The translations under genes were made by a program, and so were the position numbers. Shown one piece after another: positions 3,753-50,690 of a stretch of 64,000 nt of DNA (within the stretch, counting starts at the first letter, position 1; the number at the start of each line of letters is the position of its first letter). The stretch is taken from assembly GCA_964016885.1 (NCBI GenBank), contig OZ024741.1, forward strand, positions 298,654,001-298,718,000, given 5' to 3'. The notes under the pieces were generated by a model. That model was not told the origin of the DNA and did no database searches. It worked only from the letters and a program-made list of their open reading frames with translations. The DNA comes from Eledone cirrhosa. Lineage: Eukaryota.

Positions 3753-4685
3753 GAAAAAGCAATAGAAGGAGTAAGAGGTAAGGCGAGAGAAAAGAGTGAG
3801 GGAGAAAGTAAGATGTACTGATGTGCAAACAAATAGACATGCTTGCACTGGTGTGTACTGTGACATGCACTCACACATGCCAATTGATAGTGAAACCCAT
3901 TCATACACAGCTATCGTTTCCCAGCCTGCAACCACATGCTCATGCCATATTTGGAACTGTTATTCACCTTTTAACAAATTTACTGAGAAGCACCACTTCC
4001 CTCCCAACCCTAATCTTCCTTTCCAAGTGAAACTTGAAAACGTTAATGAGGGCCTGGCCACACAACCTCTTTCGCCACAGCCACCAGAGGAAAACTGTCT
4101 GCACATCCTGGTCAACACACTTGACGTCAGAACCGACGTAGGTCCAACATATACTTTTATTGATATCTCGATTCGAACTAGAAGCTAGTATCTATTATTT
4201 TATTCATGCTGTATGCTGCTAATCTGCATGACTATCAATCCCACAATACAGTCCTGAGGAGAGACTGTCATTTTGATGCTGCTGGCTCTGCCGCTCTTCA
4301 CCGCCTTCCCTTCTTTCTTTCTCATGTGGCTCTTCTGCTTTCGAAGCTATAAAAACTATTTAAAATTTTTACTCCATCGTCGCAACTCCTGTTCAGCTGT
4401 GTGCTTTTCATGGGCTATTAGGATAGGGTATACCTCATCCCATCACCCCGGCACTGATCACCCCTCCCTTTGCGATACAAAGTTAACATGCACTATTATA
4501 AATATAAATGGCTTTGTCACCCTTGACATTGTTCAAAGAATCTTTTCTAAAGTATTTTTCGTGGGGTGTTTCTCACACTTTTCTCTGTATAAAGAAGTCT
4601 GCTATCATCTCATAACGACACTCCTTCCACCATGTAAAGAAGGTTTCTATCTCCTTCGTAAACCACTTCCCTTCCTCCATGAAAG

Positions 4686-26914: not shown

Positions 26915-30346
<3,432 letters not shown>

Positions 30347-39110: not shown

Positions 39111-39714
39111 CTCGGTAAAATATTTGAAAAAAATGTGTTTATTGAAATTGCTTGTTAATATGTGTTTCTTATAATTGTCTAAACTGAATGGGAAGTGTAG
39201 CGTTTTTATGATGTGTCTGGCTGTTTAGTAGTATGTTTGTGTATGCTGGAAGGTATGGGCCTCTGTCGGTTTCGAGGATGAGTGTTCCAGTTGTTTAATC
39301 AACGGAACCGCCTGTTCTTGAAATTAACGTGCAAGTTTCCTGAGCATTCAACAAACATGTGTACTCATAACATAATATTGAGGGAGACTCAAAATGACAC
39401 ATGTATTTCTGTGAAAGTTTTTGGGGTTATTGAGTGTAATGCTCTGAATCCGTGTTGTGAGTTGAAGAGAGGAATGTGTGTGTTGGTGCTATTAAGTAAA
39501 GCTGTTTCTAGGAAATGTATATGTGTGAAGTTGCTTTGGTTAAGTTGTAAAACCATAATAATTTTGTTCAGTTTCCAGGTCCTTGAGGTTTAACAGTGTT
39601 GATATATGTATTTTTGGACATTTCTATTGTATTTCTGGTATCAGATTTGATCTAGATGGAAAGTCTGTGTTTTGCATATTTTTTGTAACCGATTTTGCAA
39701 AATCTTTTGATAAA

Positions 39715-40095
39715 TGAGTTTTACTGCAGTTGAGATGTGGCTAAGTTAGTTAAAGTTGTGACGTATAAAGTAACCATGAGCTATATTAAAGTGGAGGTGT
39801 GACGTAGTACACGTTGTGACGTATGGGGTATGCATGAGTTTATTGATGTAGAGGTGTAGCTTAGTTCAAGTTGTGACGTAGGGAGTAACCAAGAGTTCGT
39901 TTGATTGGTGCAGTGTGGCTTAGTTCAAGTTGTAGTATATGGAGTATGCATGAGTTTTATTGATAGACAGGGATGGATTATTTGAAGTTGTGAGGTATGG
40001 CGCATGATGTGAGGAATTGAGTATGCTGTGAGATATGGGAGGGTAACCATAAGGTTTATTAATGTTGTAGTTTGCCTACATTAGTTGAAGTTGTT
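39715..40095. repeat. Degenerate 58-bp tandem repeat, about 6 units
   Basis: AAGTTGTGACGTA..GTA(AC/TG)CATGAG recurs at about 58-bp spacing. Confidence 0.75.
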
Positions 40096-40588
40096 ACTGT
40101 GATCTATGAAATAGCCATTGCTAAAATGTATGGTGCAACAAATTACTTCGTATGATTTTCTACTGTTTGCTTTCTACTTTATGTTGGATACAAACTCTTG
40201 TTTGTTTTCCGCGTGTTTTGTTTGATTCATCTACTTGACTACTTTCTTGTTTAGTTGTCTTATTTAGCTTTATTTTTATCGTATGTGGTGCTGTTATGTT
40301 GTGTTTGAAATTAAATCTTGGTTTTATAAAGTTGGGTCTTTCATTTCTGTAATTATGGTTATTTTATGTTGCCTGGAAGGATATCTTTTTTGTACTGTAG
40401 TACTTTTTGCGTTCTTCAAACCAACATTAATCTTGTCCCTGAGTGGAAGTGGTTCTACTGGGAATTCTTCGAATTTGTGAAAGCATTTTTATTTTGTTTA
40501 TTGATGCGTGCGTGATGATAAAGAGAAAGTGGCCGGAAGAGAGTTGAGGAGATGTAATTATGATAGTTAGGTGTGTGGAATTGAAACG

Positions 40589-41025
40589 GATATCTAGAGA
40601 CATCTGTTAGTTTGTTTGGTGAGATATGTAGATTGTTCTGGACATATGAGTGTTTTATTATGCAATCATTGTCTCACATATTGTCTTATCAGCATTGATT
40701 TTGTACCAGAGTCTATTGATTGTGTTGAAGTTTATCCTACTGATGGTGTTTGGGAGAATATTAAGATGTTTTAGTTAGGAGTGTGTAACCTGGTGGGATA
40801 AATTGTGACAATTTATCCCACCAGGTTACACACTCCTAACTAAAACATCTTAATATTCTCCCAAACACCATCAGTAGGATAAACTTCAACACAATCAATA
40901 GACTCTGGTACAAAATCAATGCTGATAAGACAATATGTGAGACAATGATTGCATAATAAAACACTCATATGTCCAGAACAATCTACATATCTCACCAAAC
41001 AAACTAACAGATGTCTCTAGATATC
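40589..41025. repeat. Perfect palindrome: 218-bp arms, 1-nt spacer (40807)
   Basis: ..GGGATAAATTGT-g-ACAATTTATCCC..; both arms end in GATATC. Confidence 0.97.
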
Positions 41026-41047
41026 GAAATTATCAACACTTATCACG

Positions 41048-42313
41048 ATGATGGACACACAATCCTCTATTTTAAAGGAAATAGAAAAACAATCTACAGA
41101 CGGAAAACTTATAACTGAACATATAAACTCTGAAATTAAGAATTTAGCTGAAATTATACCAACAGTTATCAAAGATACAAGAGAAAGCCTACCACAACCC
41201 CCTTGGATGTCAGAAATAAACGAAAGAAATTTGGAAAACAAAACACATCGAATAAGAAAAGAAATGTGGAAGACATGGAAAAAATTCCGTAACATAAGAA
41301 AACAACATTTCTGGAAAGCATACAGATGCGAAAAATATGTCGAAACACATTCGAAATGGCTCTCTCTATCGGCACCCATACTCCCTCGTAAATACCTAAT
41401 TACAGAAATTGCAGGAGAACCAAAAGAAGAAACAAAACTCCGATGGGAACTTACATTGACAAAATTCAGGACTGACATCTCCATTTCTGAATGTAAACAA
41501 TCCCGCTACAAAGCCAAATATGAAGCTATTGATGACCAAATTGAAGTTGAAATTTCAAAGCTAACGACTGGTATTATAGCTGAAAAACTACGAGAACTAT
41601 GGATCGGAGATATCTCAAAAGAAGAAAACAAATCAAGAAAGGTATGGCAGCAGAAACAATTATTTCTCGATGAATATGCTGCAAATTACGGTAAAGACTC
41701 TGGAACCCTGAGAAAAAGCATTAAAAGTGGACAATCTCATCAACACAACATACGCCAGAACACGTGCCAACACAAACACTCACCTTACCTTGAATCAAAG
41801 AAGAACTACGGTAATAACTCTTCGCTTTTTCTACAAAAACAGCCTATCGCACACAACATGAACAAAAAGCACAAACACGATAGGTATTCCTTTGACCAGA
41901 CCATGAGAAGTAGTAAAACCAGGAGATCATTCTCAAGATCTCAACAGAGACTACCAACAAGGAATGTGGAAACAAAACGTAGAATAACCAGATCACTCTC
42001 AAGATCTCAACAGAGATTGCCCACAAGAAACTGGACGAAAAAACGATCTAAACCTGAAAGCAAACCTAGGTCATTTTCCCAGATTGTTAAAAATAATGCT
42101 AACAGGAAGAAAAATAATATACAGAATACCAAAAATAGGACAAAATACATAACGAAACCAAATATAATATCACGACCAAAAGTTCATCAAGCGAACACCA
42201 ACAGGAATATAAATCCTGAACAGAGAAAAATTCATATTTTAACGTCAGGACAACAAAAACCGGAAAAAGAAAAACTCCAGGAGGAAACATACCCAAAACA
42301 GCTGTACACGTAG
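41048..42313 (+). CDS. PLE upstream ORF / long N-terminal extension (helical domain plus basic Arg/Ser/Lys region)
   Basis: 421 aa without stops; 22-aa duplication RS(F/L)SRSQQRLPTRN; overlaps the RT frame in -1. Confidence 0.65.
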   Translation: MMDTQSSILKEIEKQSTDGKLITEHINSEIKNLAEIIPTVIKDTRESLPQPPWMSEINERNLENKTHRIRKEMWKTWKKFRNIRKQHFWKAYRCEKYVETHSKWLSLSAPILPRKYLITEIAGEPKEETKLRWELTLTKFRTDISISECKQSRYKAKYEAIDDQIEVEISKLTTGIIAEKLRELWIGDISKEENKSRKVWQQKQLFLDEYAANYGKDSGTLRKSIKSGQSHQHNIRQNTCQHKHSPYLESKKNYGNNSSLFLQKQPIAHNMNKKHKHDRYSFDQTMRSSKTRRSFSRSQQRLPTRNVETKRRITRSLSRSQQRLPTRNWTKKRSKPESKPRSFSQIVKNNANRKKNNIQNTKNRTKYITKPNIISRPKVHQANTNRNINPEQRKIHILTSGQQKPEKEKLQEETYPKQLYT

Positions 42314-44547
42314 ATCCGAAAATAATTAATTTATCTAAAAGAGATCTTGACAATGATGAAATGCAAATTCTGTCAAAAGGACTGAAATTCACACCGACTC
42401 CAAGAGTCAACCACCAAGAACTGAAGGAGGATACCCAAGAATTCTGTCGAAAATTACGTCTTGTAGAATTCTTCGCTGATAAAAATAATGAGAGTGATGA
42501 ATCACTAGTAAAGAATAAATCAAATTTCACTCCGCCAAAAGGAAGAAATATCTATCTCGACCAATACATTGACATCCTGTCTAAATTTCCTCTTAGACAT
42601 AATACTAATGTTAGGCCAAACATTAACAAATCAGAAATGTCTGCACTTAAACGTATACAAAATGATAAAACAATAATAATTAAACAAGCAGATAAAGGGG
42701 GTGTAGTTGTTATAATGGATACTGAATACTACAAGGATTTGGTTGAGGAACAACTGAAAGACACAACATTCTATCATGAAATACCGTCAAATATAGACCA
42801 CAACATCATGAAGAAGATCAACAACCTGGCTTCAAAATACCACAACTCATTTACTGATAAGGAAAGAGACTACATCACCAAATTTGAGCCGAAACCCAGC
42901 AACCTGTATGGCTTACCGAAAGTTCACAAGTCAAAAGAAATACAACTGGCAGTAAGAGAACAAAACAGTGAGTACATTAAATTATTACACCCAAAAGACT
43001 TAAAACTTAGACCTATTATAGCTGGTCCAACATGCCCCACTCACCGTCTAAGCAATTTTGTTGACATTATTTTGAAACCACTATGTATTCACATACCCAG
43101 TTTCATCCGGGATGATATCGACTTCCTGTCCCATCTTCCCAAAACCACGGAAACGAATTCACTTCTACTCAGTTTTGATGTGGTAAGCCTTTACACCAAC
43201 ATTACACATGATTTAGGAATAAAGGCGGTTAAATACTGGGTGGAAAAACATAGAGAAGTGATTCCCATTAGATTCACAGCGCCATTTATATTAGACGCAG
43301 TTAAACTTATTCTGGAAAACAACACTTTCTTCTTCAATGGAAAGAATTACATCCAAATTAGAGGCACAGCGATGGGAACGAAGTTTGCTCCCGTTTACGC
43401 GAACTCTGTAATGGGATACTTAGAACAACAACTCTACCAAGAAATAGAGGAAAAATATAGTACTGACTTTAGAAAGTACATAGAAAAATCTTGGAAGAGA
43501 TACCTTGAAGACTGTTTCATCATCTGGACAGAATCTCTAGATACTCTGGATGAGTTCAATATCCTCCTGAATAACCTACACCCATCTCTCCAATTCACAA
43601 AAGAGATGAGTAGGACCAAATTACCATTCCTAGATATAATGATAATCAAAAACGACACCACCATTACCACGGATATATATTATAAACACACAGACACCCA
43701 TCAATATCTGAATTTTAAGTCGTGCCATCCACCTCATACAACACGCAACATCCCATACTGCCTAGCCAGAAGAATTTGTACCATTGTAGAAGATACGAAT
43801 ACCAGGTACAAACGCCTAACAGAACTAAGAGAATTTTTGCTCAAACAAAAATACCCATCTCTACTTATAGAAAATGGCATACAGCGGGCTATAAAAATAC
43901 CTATACAACAACTTAGAACAACCCAAGGAAGAAGAAACCAAGAACTGGTCATACCATTTATAATGACACACAACCCATGTCACCATAATATCTTCAACAC
44001 TGCCAAAGCAAACCTACCGATCATTGTTCAAAGTAATGAATTAAAAGGCTTAATCACAGATCGATCTTTGACACTTAGTAAAAGACAGCCAAAAAATTTG
44101 AAGTAATTGCTAACAAAAGCAAAGTTTGACCTTAACAACAAAGACCAATCATTCACCGTATCTAAATGCAATGATAATCGATGCGGCACATGTCAATCCA
44201 TACACGCCGGTCAATATATGAAAACAAAAACTGGAAAAATATTCCCAAATGCAAATATGAACTGCAAAAGCAGAAATCTAATTTACTGCATTAAATGCCC
44301 GAATTGTGAAGAACTATATGTCGGTCAAACTGGAAATGCACTATCGGAACGTGCACGGGTACACCGTCAACAAATCAGAGACCCAAATGTCCGTCAGATA
44401 CCCCTAAGCGGCCACCTGGCAACATGTGTTCAGGGAATATTTATAATATTCCCATTCTACAAATTACACAGCCCAAGTGAAATCAAGAGAAAAATCAAAG
44501 AAAAGAATTTTATTGATAAATTCAAACCCAAGCTAAATGAACAATAA
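42220..44547 (+). pseudogene. PLE RT + GIY-YIG endonuclease
   Basis: IINLS..ILSKGLKFTPTP, KQADKGG, YGLPKVHK, RPII, SFDVVSLYTNI, GTAMGT, RYLEDC (catalytic D to E), LPFLD; in-frame TAA at 44104; CNDNRCGTC..NLIYCIKCPNC..YVGQT..R..H..PKLN. Confidence 0.93.
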
Positions 44548-44711
44548 TAACGCCTCGGGGTATTACTTCTACTACCACTATGACCACGACCACTAACAAC
44601 AACAACAACAACAATAATAATAATAATAATAAAAGTGATGTTGATGGTGATGATTAATAGAAAATGCTATTTTCATCAAAAAGCAAAACAATTGATATGT
44701 TGGATATGACT

Positions 44712-44856
44712 ATTGGTCGTTAGCATGCTCAACCAGCCGTGACGCTTAAACCAATCAGCTGTATTAATTCAGTGAAACTACACACTGATTGGTCGAAATG
44801 CAGTTTACAGGGCTTTGCATTCTGGAGCCACTTTTCTCTGTATAAAATGTATAAAA
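44712..44856 (+). promoter_or_regulatory. Putative pLTR Pol II promoter
   Basis: CCAAT boxes at 44712 (rev), 44751 and 44788 (rev); TATAAAA at 44841 and 44850; about 65 nt upstream of the HHR. Confidence 0.5.
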
Positions 44857-44919
44857 GGTAGGAAATTTACCCATCTCATTACAGTTGAAAATTGCAAACT
44901 CGACTGTCACCACATATCA

Positions 44920-44958
44920 TGAACCTGAAGATTGCGAAAGCATGAAAGTACTTGTTCA
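44920..44958 (+). ncRNA. Minimal type I hammerhead ribozyme
   Basis: TGAAC-CTGAAGA-T-TGC-GAAA-GCA-T-GAAA-GTAC-TT-GTTCA; palindromic stem III. Confidence 0.8.
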
Positions 44959-45066
44959 ATTAACACTTAGAATTTAATATTCTATCATACTATTTCATTA
45001 TAATACCATTATATATATTTTAAAGGATTGTAAATAAAACGAGTAAATCAGACAAAGTTGGAATTC

Positions 45067-45110
<44 letters not shown>

Positions 45111-45374
45111 CACCAACTTCATGACGATTTCTCACGAATGAATCACTTCTAGTCCTGTAGAAGCTCTTATATATATATATATATATTGTCAAAGATTTCC
45201 TGAGTCGGTGTTTTTCGTTGTTCTGGTCCTAGCGGCTCGCATTTCGGTCGGTGTCTTCAATTTGCATAGCTGTCTAAACGTAAGGTAAAATTCTTTATTT
45301 TGTGCTTTTGGCTGCACTTCCCGACTACATTCGTTAACTTGCCCGCAACCAGAGCTTCGATTATGCTACCTTCT

Positions 45375-45456
<82 letters not shown>

Positions 45457-45490
45457 TTACAATAATCAAAGTTCAGTTTAAATCATTTAT

Positions 45491-45539
45491 TTGCTTACAA
45501 TTGTTTCCTCCAAACCGAGGTTTGGATTCTTCGGAGCAA
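45491..45539 (-). ncRNA. Hammerhead-like motif, CCGAAGA core
   Basis: TTGCT-CCGAAGA-A-TCCAAAC/GTTTGGA-G-GAAA-CAATTG-TA-AGCAA. Confidence 0.7.
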
Positions 45540-45663
45540 TTATTTAGTGATCTATAACATACTTGACCTCCTTTTCAACACAAGAGACATATACAAACAT
45601 ATGCATATATTGACCCACAGTGGGATGACATCCATGAAAATGATATAGCAGGGCAATTTACAT

Positions 45664-45860
45664 ATAAAAATAAAAATAAAAATAAAAATAAAAATAAAAA
45701 TAAAAATAAAAATAAAAATAAAAATAAAAATAAAAATAAAAATAAAAATAAAAATAAAAATAAAAATAAAAATAAAAATAAAAATAAAAATAAAAATAAA
45801 AATAAAAATAAAAATTAAAATAAAAATAAAAATAAAAATAAAAATAAAAATAAAAATAAA

Positions 45861-46996: not shown

Positions 46997-47461
<465 letters not shown>

Positions 47462-48075: not shown

Positions 48076-48105
48076 AATATATATGTATTATATAAATATA
48101 TATAC

Positions 48106-48142
<37 letters not shown>

Positions 48143-48147
<5 letters not shown>

Positions 48148-50647
48148 TCAGGTTATCAATAATGTAGTGATAATATATCGTTACGTTAGAGATGAACAGC
48201 GTACGTGCAGGTTTGCTCAACGAGTATAAATTATATTCCGGAGAAAATGTAGAAAGGATGAATATAAAATGAATGTGCTTTTTTTAAAAAGGAATTTATT
48301 AGGTATTGACATATGTTTCTGTAACAGACGGAATACCTATGTATCGCTGCTTGCGTAATCATATAATGTTAGCAATTATTCGATTGCAAATGTATAATCA
48401 GTTGTCACTTCTTCAGAGATTTTGGATAAATTGGATAAAATCAGAAAAATTGAAGTATTTATATTAGTAATAGAGGAAGAAAACGGGGGGATAGTATATG
48501 ACAGATGGTAAATTAATTTACTGCTAAACAAGTATATAATGGGTTTCTAATGAGAATACCATGAGTAAATCTAAATAAGAATTTTGGGAGTGCCAATTTT
48601 AATCTCTACTTGACCAATTGGACAGTGGACAGGGCTGGTCATTTGGTGCAGTAGTATTAATTATAAAGTGTCAATTGGGGAAGGGGGAGATTTCGATTAC
48701 TACTAAATAACATCAATGCTAGTAGCCAGCTGGTATATGCATTAGGGAATTGAATCAAGAAATCAGAAATCTCATTTTATCTATAGCAGTTTGTATTAAA
48801 AGGTAAATAATAGAAGAGTTGATAGAATTAAGACTAATAAAGAATGTTAATATCTATTTTGACAATCAAACGGAGATAGACAGGCGTTCAATCCTGGTAG
48901 TATTTATAATATGAAAATGTAGATTTTAAGCGATGGTTACAGTATAATGATCGCTCTATTCTGTTATTTAATAAAATGTTTTTGGATTTCATAATACAAA
49001 ATAATTCTACATTACATAATTTACAAAATTCCTGTCCATGGGTATATGGGGGGGGGGGGGGGGGGGGGGGGGGCAGCCGCTATTATATCCCATTTTAGGT
49101 GAAATTGTTGGTTATTTTCACGCAGCTGCCAAGCCTTGTCTGCGAGTGTTGTTACATAACGCTGGTTTTCATGTTTTATCGAGTAACGATGTCTATAAAG
49201 GCGTGATTTGAAGGAGGTGGCTGTAGATCCCACATAGTACCACTTCTGTCTATCCGATTCGATAGTGCATTTGTATATGATGTTGCGTTCAAGACACTGG
49301 TTGTTCAACGGACACATTCCTGGTTGGACACAGTTGCAATTATAATTTTGCGTTGTTGTATTGCCATGGATGGGTTGATGAGGTTGCTTATGTAGGACAG
49401 GATGTTGTTTGTTGTTTTGTGATGTTATAGCTAATGTTTTACGTGCATTGTTATGTGTTGGAAGGTGTTTATACAACCGTTTTGCGTTAAGCTTTTTTAT
49501 ATGTTGTTCAATATTAGGGGCGGTTGAATATGAAAGTCGAATAGTGTTAGGGTTTAAGATTTTATTATATTTATGTGATGTTGGAAAGTGTTTTTTAACA
49601 AATCGAAAGAATTTTGAGGGTAGATTGGTTTTAATAGAGTTGTTATAGACCAGGTTGTACCAAATCTACAGCCGGGTTGTACCAGATCTACAGCCACCTC
49701 CTTCAAATCACGCCTTTATAGACATCGTTACTCGATAAAACATGAAAACCAGCATTATGTAACAACACTCGCAGACAAGGCTTGGCAGCTGCGTGAAAAT
49801 AACCAACAATTTAACCTAAAATGGGATATAATAGCGGCTGCCCCCCCCCCCCATATACCCATGGACAGGAATTTTGTAAATTATGTAATGTAGAATTATT
49901 TTGTATTATGAAATCCAAAAATATTTTATTAAATAACAGAATAGAGCGATCGTTATACTGTAACCATCGCTTAAAATCTACATTTTCATATTATAAATAC
50001 TACCAGGATTGAACGCCTGTCTCTATCTCCGTTTGATTGTCAAAATAGATATTAACATTCTTTATTAGTCTTAATTCTATCAACTCTTCTATTATTTACC
50101 TTTTAATACAAACTGCTATAGATAAAATGAGATTTCTGATTTCTTGATTCAATTCCCTAATGCATATACCAGCTGGCTACTAGCATTGATGTTATTTAGT
50201 AGCAATCGAAATCTCCCCCTTCCCCAATTGACACTTTATAATTAATACTACTGCACCAAATGACCAGCCCTGTCCACTGTCCAATTGGTCAAGTAGAGAT
50301 TAAAATTGGCACTCCCAAAATTCTTATTTAGATTTACTCATGGTATTCTCATTAGAAACCCATTATATACTTGTTTAGCAGTAAATTAATTTACCATCTG
50401 TCATATACTATCCCCCCGTTTTCTTCCTCTATTACTAATATAAATACTTCAATTTTTCTGATTTTATCCAATTTATCCAAAATCTCTGAAGAAGTGACAA
50501 CTGATTATACATTTGCTATCGAATACTTGCTAACATTATATGATTACGCAAGCAGCGATACATAGGTATTCCGTCTGTTACAGAAACATATGTCAATACC
50601 TAATAAATTCCTTTTTAAAAAAAGCACTTTCATTTTATATTCATCCT

Positions 50648-50650
<3 letters not shown>
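48143..50650 (-). mobile_element. Second insertion of the 27-30 kb PLE family: 1.5-kb minus arm plus 1.0-kb inverted arm
   Basis: 48143-49662 carries GIY-YIG and UTR on minus; 49685-50650 is plus; (TA)n on both sides. Confidence 0.92.

Positions 50651-50690
<40 letters not shown>

What the first reader, a model, noticed from the sequence alone, without database searches (positions are those of the whole stretch)
40589..41025. Perfect 437-bp fold-back of flanking DNA fused to the 5' end of a Neptune PLE
Seen: 218-bp arms with a 1-nt spacer. The PLE upstream reading frame stops (TAG at 41018) just inside the right arm, and the arm does not match this element's own 3' pLTR. Known: PLEs often carry an inverted copy of their own pLTR at the 5' end. 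Inference: here the inverted DNA is target DNA instead. A snap-back of a free DNA end may have been extended along the flank and then joined to the cDNA at GATATC.
Basis: partly seen in the sequence, partly recalled or inferred. Interest (0 to 1): 0.7.

Follow-up and report, generated by a model that had tools for sequence, protein, structure and literature searches.

The report
Penelope insertion with mirrored target DNA
A dead copy of a Penelope-like jumping gene is joined at its front end to a perfect 218-base mirror copy of the neighbouring single-copy DNA, likely made when the broken chromosome end folded back and was extended during insertion, a rare repair scar already described for human L1 elements.

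Summary
The palindrome is exact (218-bp arms, 1-nt centre). Contigs from three runs of one sample show its centre at about flank depth, so it is not a read chimera; the arm-to-element joint itself was not listed. The arm is old single-copy host DNA, not part of the element. The element is a 5'-truncated, inactive copy of a young (TA)n-targeting Penelope-like family (4,202-bp unit, Neptune/Nematis-type nuclease), joined to the arm through a likely 7-nt microhomology (AGATATC). Among 109 surveyed 5' junctions, 4 carry an abutting fold-back (0.14 expected), but only 2, this one included, fold host DNA; fold-backs inside the element are common (8 of 65 inversion joints). Best reading: the free left target end lost its TA tract, folded back, was extended 218 nt and was joined to the cDNA. 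The same outcome is published for L1 (4 of about 1,200 insertions, 52-220 bp). I found no Penelope report in six searches. This scan noted mirrored flanks beside Penelope copies elsewhere in this genome. No empty site was available, so timing (at insertion or later) is open.

The parts
39304..40588 (.). Left host flank: old, strand-skewed, near single-copy DNA with a decayed 58-bp tandem repeat (39746-40000); no (TA)n tract
   Evidence: a weak paralog L035 at 64% over 40050-40383; reads of another sample X10 at 39960-40319
40589..40806 (+). Left arm: original host DNA (inferred template)
   Evidence: continuous with the flank in one contig; only self-hits in genome
40807..40807 (.). 1-nt centre (TTGT-G-ACAA); folds with a 3-nt TGA loop
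   Evidence: 61-nt centre contig
40808..41025 (-). Right arm: inverted copy of the left arm (inferred new synthesis)
41019..41025 (+). Junction microhomology AGATATC; 7 nt if the template lacked one ATC as in L147 or slipped by 3 nt, 3 nt at minimum
41023..42313 (+). ORF1 of the element, missing its first ~20 codons (copy starts at unit position 92)
   Evidence: no Pfam family at curated cut-off
42220..44547 (+). ORF2: reverse transcriptase, CX4CxxC linker (44167-44193), C-terminal GIY-YIG nuclease; broken here by a stop at 44104-44106 and YLDD changed to YLED
44548..45070 (+). 3' UTR / pseudo-LTR with TATA-like box (44850) and hammerhead-like core (44925-44957); ends at or just before the proximal of the family's two 3' ends (unit 4143-4152)
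   Evidence: hammerhead recognised from recalled core motifs, no Rfam hammerhead hit
45072..45108 (.). (AT)n target tract
45117..45186 (.). Short repeated stub followed by (TA)n, part of the right flank

Best explanation
This is a 5'-truncated Penelope-like insertion joined to a perfect inverted copy of 218 bp of its left host flank, likely formed when the free left target end folded back on itself, was extended along its own strand and was then annealed to the cDNA end through a short microhomology. Shown: the palindrome, host origin of the arm, the (TA)n at the 3' end, the missing TA on the left, the shared junction bases, and recurrence at other copies. Inferred steps: (1) the nuclease cut the (TA)n tract and the cDNA was primed from the right end; (2) the left end was trimmed and resected past its TA; (3) the 3' overhang paired at a small natural quasi-palindrome around GTGAC and primed 218 nt of synthesis by a host polymerase or the element's RT; (4) the new strand annealed to the cDNA end at AGATATC and the gaps were filled. 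It is a one-off repair scar with no function claimed.
For: Exact arms and read support. Arm absent from element and from the rest of the genome search; flank old, no young source copy found. Fold-backs abut 4 of 109 5' junctions against 0.14 expected from 31 other palindromes in 404 kb of flank; L237 is a clean host-DNA case, 194-bp arms centred on the (TA)n target. Non-TA left flanks are common: 21 of 52 direct junctions. Overlaps of 1-7 nt occur at 34 of 57 non-fold-back inversion joints. 8 of 65 inversion joints are element fold-backs with spacers 1-11 nt, two of them 1 nt. Same product reported for L1 and at yeast breaks.
Against: No empty allele was found, so the deletion and the pre-existing quasi-palindrome are unseen. 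The copy has 22 private substitutions in 3,975 sites (0.55%), predicting about 2.4 arm mismatches if arms and copy are equally old, yet there are 0 (P = 0.09; about 0.19 by hand if the ~30% of private variants shared by both arms of other copies are source-inherited). Two of the three other abutting fold-backs are not host DNA (L159 another Penelope family; L196 a repeated stub); with host DNA only and this locus left out, 1 of 108 is not a significant excess (P = 0.13). The predicted priming hairpin is weak (-0.5 kcal/mol with 4 bp, z -0.65). The arm-to-element joint was not listed among contigs.
Confidence: 0.6

Rival explanations
1. Template jump by the cDNA: the cDNA 3' end annealed to the flank's bottom strand at GATATCT, copied 218 nt up to the break, and the two identical quasi-palindromic ends were then joined. 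The product is the same; the order and perhaps the polymerase differ.
For: A 7-nt microhomology suits a primer; a true 1-nt loop cannot form, whereas end-to-end annealing of two like ends gives a 1-nt centre; the family fuses pieces of different templates often.
Against: Needs an extra closing step; a 3-nt loop is enough for snap-back; L237 turns in self-complementary (TA)n, where snap-back is simplest.
Confidence: 0.17
2. Later rearrangement: an ordinary insertion came first; a later break removed the left TA, some flank and the element's 5' part and was repaired by fold-back synthesis and microhomology joining, unrelated to transposition.
For: 0 arm mismatches against 1.7-2.4 expected; L237 and L196 are also older copies (0.54%, 0.76%) with perfect arms, though the screen favours near-perfect arms; yeast breaks give such products without any retroelement.
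Against: All 4 abutting fold-backs sit at 5' junctions, the side left free during insertion; the age signal is weak; L1 cases arise at insertion.
Confidence: 0.18
3. The left region is a second cDNA, from another RNA, primed at the left end and folded back at its own 5' end, as at L159 and L196.
For: This happens at two other loci; the left region is strand-skewed like a retroelement.
Against: No young source copy, no open frame or Pfam hit, no (TA)n or 3'-end signature on the left, only 64-84% paralogs.
Confidence: 0.03
4. Assembly or library artefact (fold-back chimera).
For: The joint to the element was not listed in contigs; X1-X3 are one sample and may be the assembly's source.
Against: The same end point in three runs, a centre contig at flank depth, and a depth ratio that matches 218-bp arms.
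Confidence: 0.02

Closest known systems
L1 insertions with a fold-back inverted duplication of 5' target DNA (Nam et al. 2023, PMC10191854; bioRxiv 10.1101/2024.12.14.628481 Fig. 4D-E)
   Same: Short inverted duplication of host DNA at the end opposite the primed end, small hairpin centre, joined to the cDNA; 218 bp lies within the reported 52-220 bp.
   Different: Element is a Penelope-like element with a GIY-YIG nuclease and (TA)n target; germline-inherited; no target-site duplication seen and the left TA is gone.
Inverted 5'-truncated copies and junction palindromes of EN+ Penelope-like elements (Craig et al. 2021, PMC8557442; Arkhipova lab 2013, PMC3846280)
   Same: Inverted repeat at the 5' end with a palindromic turn; 57 of 110 surveyed insertions begin with an inverted element piece.
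   Different: Here the inverted DNA is host flank, not element.
Local fold-back inversions at yeast double-strand breaks (PMC11724301)
   Same: Resection, hairpin priming, short synthesis, capture of the other end by end joining.
   Different: Most yeast products are 5-34 bp, with a 41-nt loop at the tested locus; no retroelement involved.

Membership tests
EN+ Penelope-like element, Neptune group | RT followed by C-terminal GIY-YIG nuclease | tested here: met
   Pfam GIY-YIG above cut-off (E 1.3e-6), RVT_1 below cut-off (E 2.2e-4); one 775-aa frame in the L144 unit
EN+ Penelope-like element, Neptune group | CX2-5CxxC linker before the nuclease (Neptune and Nematis, PMC8557442) | tested here: met
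   CNDNRCGTC at 44167-44193
EN+ Penelope-like element, Neptune group | CCHH motif in the nuclease (absent in Hydra) | tested here: met
   read by eye in the translation: two Cys in IYCIKCPNC, His in RVHR and SGHL; not aligned to references
EN+ Penelope-like element, Neptune group | pLTR, partial tandems, inverted copies, optional tail, (TA)n target | tested here: met
   3' ends at unit 4202 in 56 and 4152 in 40 of 117 rows
EN+ Penelope-like element, Neptune group | RT phylogeny places it in Neptune and not Nematis | not tested
   no reference sequences were fetched
L1-type insertion with inverted duplication of target DNA | Inverted copy is host DNA adjacent to the insertion, on the 5' side | tested here: met
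L1-type insertion with inverted duplication of target DNA | Small hairpin or microhomology at the turn, pre-existing in the target | tested here: inconclusive
   1-nt centre fits, but no empty allele
L1-type insertion with inverted duplication of target DNA | Target-site duplication retained | tested here: not met
   no match between left and right flanks; TA absent on the left
L1-type insertion with inverted duplication of target DNA | Arose in the same event as the insertion | not testable with these tools
   needs an empty allele or fresh insertions; age test equivocal

The most novel reading that the evidence does not exclude
The element's own reverse transcriptase makes these fold-backs: it snaps back and copies any free 3' end at the insertion site (its cDNA, another family's cDNA, or host target DNA), so this family routinely mirrors host DNA at 1-2% of insertions, more often than L1, and seeds perfect palindromes across the genome.
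Probability: 0.2. Interest if true: 0.55.

Novelty: new member of a known kind. Interest (0 to 1): 0.27.

Why it matters
It extends a rare L1 integration outcome to Penelope-like elements, whose 5' joining step is unresolved (PMC11167929 says later steps remain to be validated). It suggests that the left target end is free and processed like a double-strand break. If transcribed, such perfect palindromes would be double-stranded RNA substrates (general link in PMC5625713; transcription untested here). The single locus has no evident function.

Tried and rejected
Empty allele: genome searches with arm and flank returned only this locus at high identity; RAD-seq reads of three other samples (X10-X12) did not cover the centre, and X4 (another organism) had no cover over the flank. 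No RNA holder listed. Coding role of the flank: 0 Pfam hits in 6 frames. Rfam: 9 matches, all microRNA-precursor models below gathering score, explained by the hairpin shape or TA runs. Arm homogenisation: only 4 fold-back loci were measurable, 4 one-arm and 4 shared variants in 1,963 bp, no conclusion. A first loose fold-back screen (7 of 109 junctions, 11 of 463 control points) counted microsatellite and within-arm matches and was replaced by the stricter; a still looser one (16 of 110 junctions, 40 of 500 control points) showed little excess. L170, L212, L234, L126, L160, L139, L179 palindromes or inverted repeats do not abut the junction or belong to other repeats and were not counted. Sequence look-up in earlier scan notes: nothing.

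Full report
Observation. The inverted repeat is exactly as described: 40589-40806 and 40808-41025, 218 nt, no mismatch, G at the centre. The upstream frame is closed by TAG 41018-41020 inside the right arm.

Is it real? Contigs of runs X1-X3 (one sample, perhaps the assembly's source) each hold a 1,503-nt contig 39304-40806 that stops at the centre, where a palindrome makes the assembly graph branch. X2 holds a 61-nt contig across the centre at depth 7.9. From bin means I infer centre depths 4.7, 7.8 and 7.0; the flank/centre ratio is 1.14, against 1.13 for 218-bp arms on every chromosome carrying this flank and about 2.1 for a half-empty site. A random chimera would not do this. The joint from arm to element was not listed; pruning of a low-depth link next to a 760-fold repeat would explain that, but this is inference.

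The element. 41023 to about 45070 is 99% identical to a 4,202-bp unit taken from a tandem copy. The family is young and abundant: 352-1,187 search candidates by segment, median private divergence 0.12% in 96 long copies. It has an ORF1, an overlapping RT plus GIY-YIG frame with a CX4CxxC linker, a pLTR, two alternative 3' ends 50 nt apart and (TA)n targets. These match EN+ Penelope-like elements of the Neptune/Nematis type (PMC8557442, passages) and the two RT start sites of PMC11167929 (parts 1-2 of 4 read). This copy is dead (stop at 44104, YLED) and among the older ones: 22 private substitutions in 3,975 sites, 8th of 96.

The arm is host DNA. The 29 other loci continue upstream with the element's own sequence. 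Arm and flank return only themselves at high identity, with a 64% paralog of part of the flank and an ~80% repeat at 39252-39400; no coding remnant was found. Reads of another sample lie on 39960-40319. There is no (TA)n on the left, so the left part of the target tract and an unknown amount of flank are likely lost.

The junction. The arm ends in AGATATC; the element reads AGATATC-ATC-GAAATT. One of 43 copies covering the site (L147) lacks an ATC and alone shares variant T358G with this copy, though it lacks this copy's shared 3' variants. Whether by a variant template or a 3-nt slip, annealing over 7 nt is likely; 3 nt is the minimum.

Survey. I fetched 116 stretches (best-scoring hits, so biased to long young copies; at least two pairs look duplicated) and added this locus. 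Seven were open on the left and one bordered N, leaving 109 junctions. Of 110 closed insertions 57 start with an inverted element piece and 53 are direct. A strict screen (arms of 15 nt or more, at most 4% mismatch, spacer up to 12, ending within 8 nt of the junction) found 4 of 109 against 0.14 expected: this locus; L237 (194 bp, centred on (TA)12, host DNA, mostly microsatellite with a 22-bp core seen in no other fetched locus); L196 (37 bp of a repeated stub); L159 (15 bp of another Penelope family). L205 has a 32-bp inverted host copy from 291 bp upstream at its junction. Host-DNA cases other than this one are thus 1 strict and 1 wide-loop in 108; the strict one alone is not significant (P = 0.13). 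Inside the element 8 of 65 inversion joints are fold-backs, with spacers 1, 3, 11, 5, 1, 7, 3 and 8 nt. Twelve further short loci added one element fold-back (L267) and no host case by eye; 5 of them were open.

Mechanism. Most likely the left target end was resected, folded back at a small quasi-palindrome, extended 218 nt and annealed to the cDNA end (0.6). A cDNA template jump gives the same product (0.17). A later break is possible (0.18): the arms have 0 mismatches where 1.7-2.4 are expected, P about 0.09-0.19. Co-inserted cDNA (0.03) and artefact (0.02) are unlikely. The polymerase is unknown.

Known parallels. Nam et al. report fold-back inverted duplications upstream of L1 target sites in 3 plus 1 of about 1,200 insertions (total derived from 354 = 29.5%), 52-220 bp (PMC10191854, passages). 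bioRxiv 2024.12.14.628481 models the same outcome by self-annealing of the resected reciprocal end (passages). Yeast breaks give it too (PMC11724301, abstract and one section). For Penelope elements, junction palindromes of element sequence and microhomology joints are described (PMC3846280, passages). Six searches listed no paper on host-DNA fold-backs at Penelope insertions; the library lacks most subscription papers and I read no supplements. Earlier unreviewed notes of this scan describe mirrored flanks beside other Penelope copies in this genome; I did not check those loci.

Verdict. Real and correctly read, a likely insertion-repair scar of a kind known for L1, here in a Penelope-like family. 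Interest 0.27.

Noticed in passing
window 42233-42244; unit 1303-1309: The family has two overlapping frames. A T-TTT-TTA heptamer at the overlap, in the right register for a -1 frameshift, is intact in all 72 other copies covering it and mutated in this copy. No strong downstream hairpin was predicted. The slippery-site pattern is recalled; PMC8557442 Fig. 1 legend mentions frameshifted ORF1 for some PLE types without my seeing which.
   Followed up: partly
unit 3953 and 4024-4027 (window about 44882 and 44953): 5' ends and fold-back turns cluster 31 nt after a TATA-like box (4 starts at 3953) and at the predicted hammerhead cut (4 starts at 4024-4026), as if cDNAs run off the RNA 5' end and turn back.
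   Followed up: partly
L159 and L196 5' junctions: Chimeric insertions: this family joined to a folded-back piece of a different Penelope family (L159) or of a short repeated stub (L196).
   Followed up: partly
L160 flanks: 79 bp of flank is mirrored (97%) on the two sides of a tail-out insertion.
   Followed up: no
L234 and L170 upstream flanks: A 311-bp tandem repeat folds back into a perfect palindrome (1,632-bp arms at L234, 78 bp at L170) and ends in (TA)n.
   Followed up: no
window 27047-30344 and 48089-50655: Two more large inverted-repeat insertions related to each other, with RT-like and nuclease-like frames (27769-29271, 49021-49665), probably another Penelope-like family.
   Followed up: no
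window 45432-45703 and 47070-47353: An 83% inverted repeat of about 280 bp brackets the (ATAAAA)n array right of the insertion.
   Followed up: no
flanks of the 116 fetched loci: 31 other near-perfect short-spacer palindromes in 404 kb, many of a few recurring families.
   Followed up: partly
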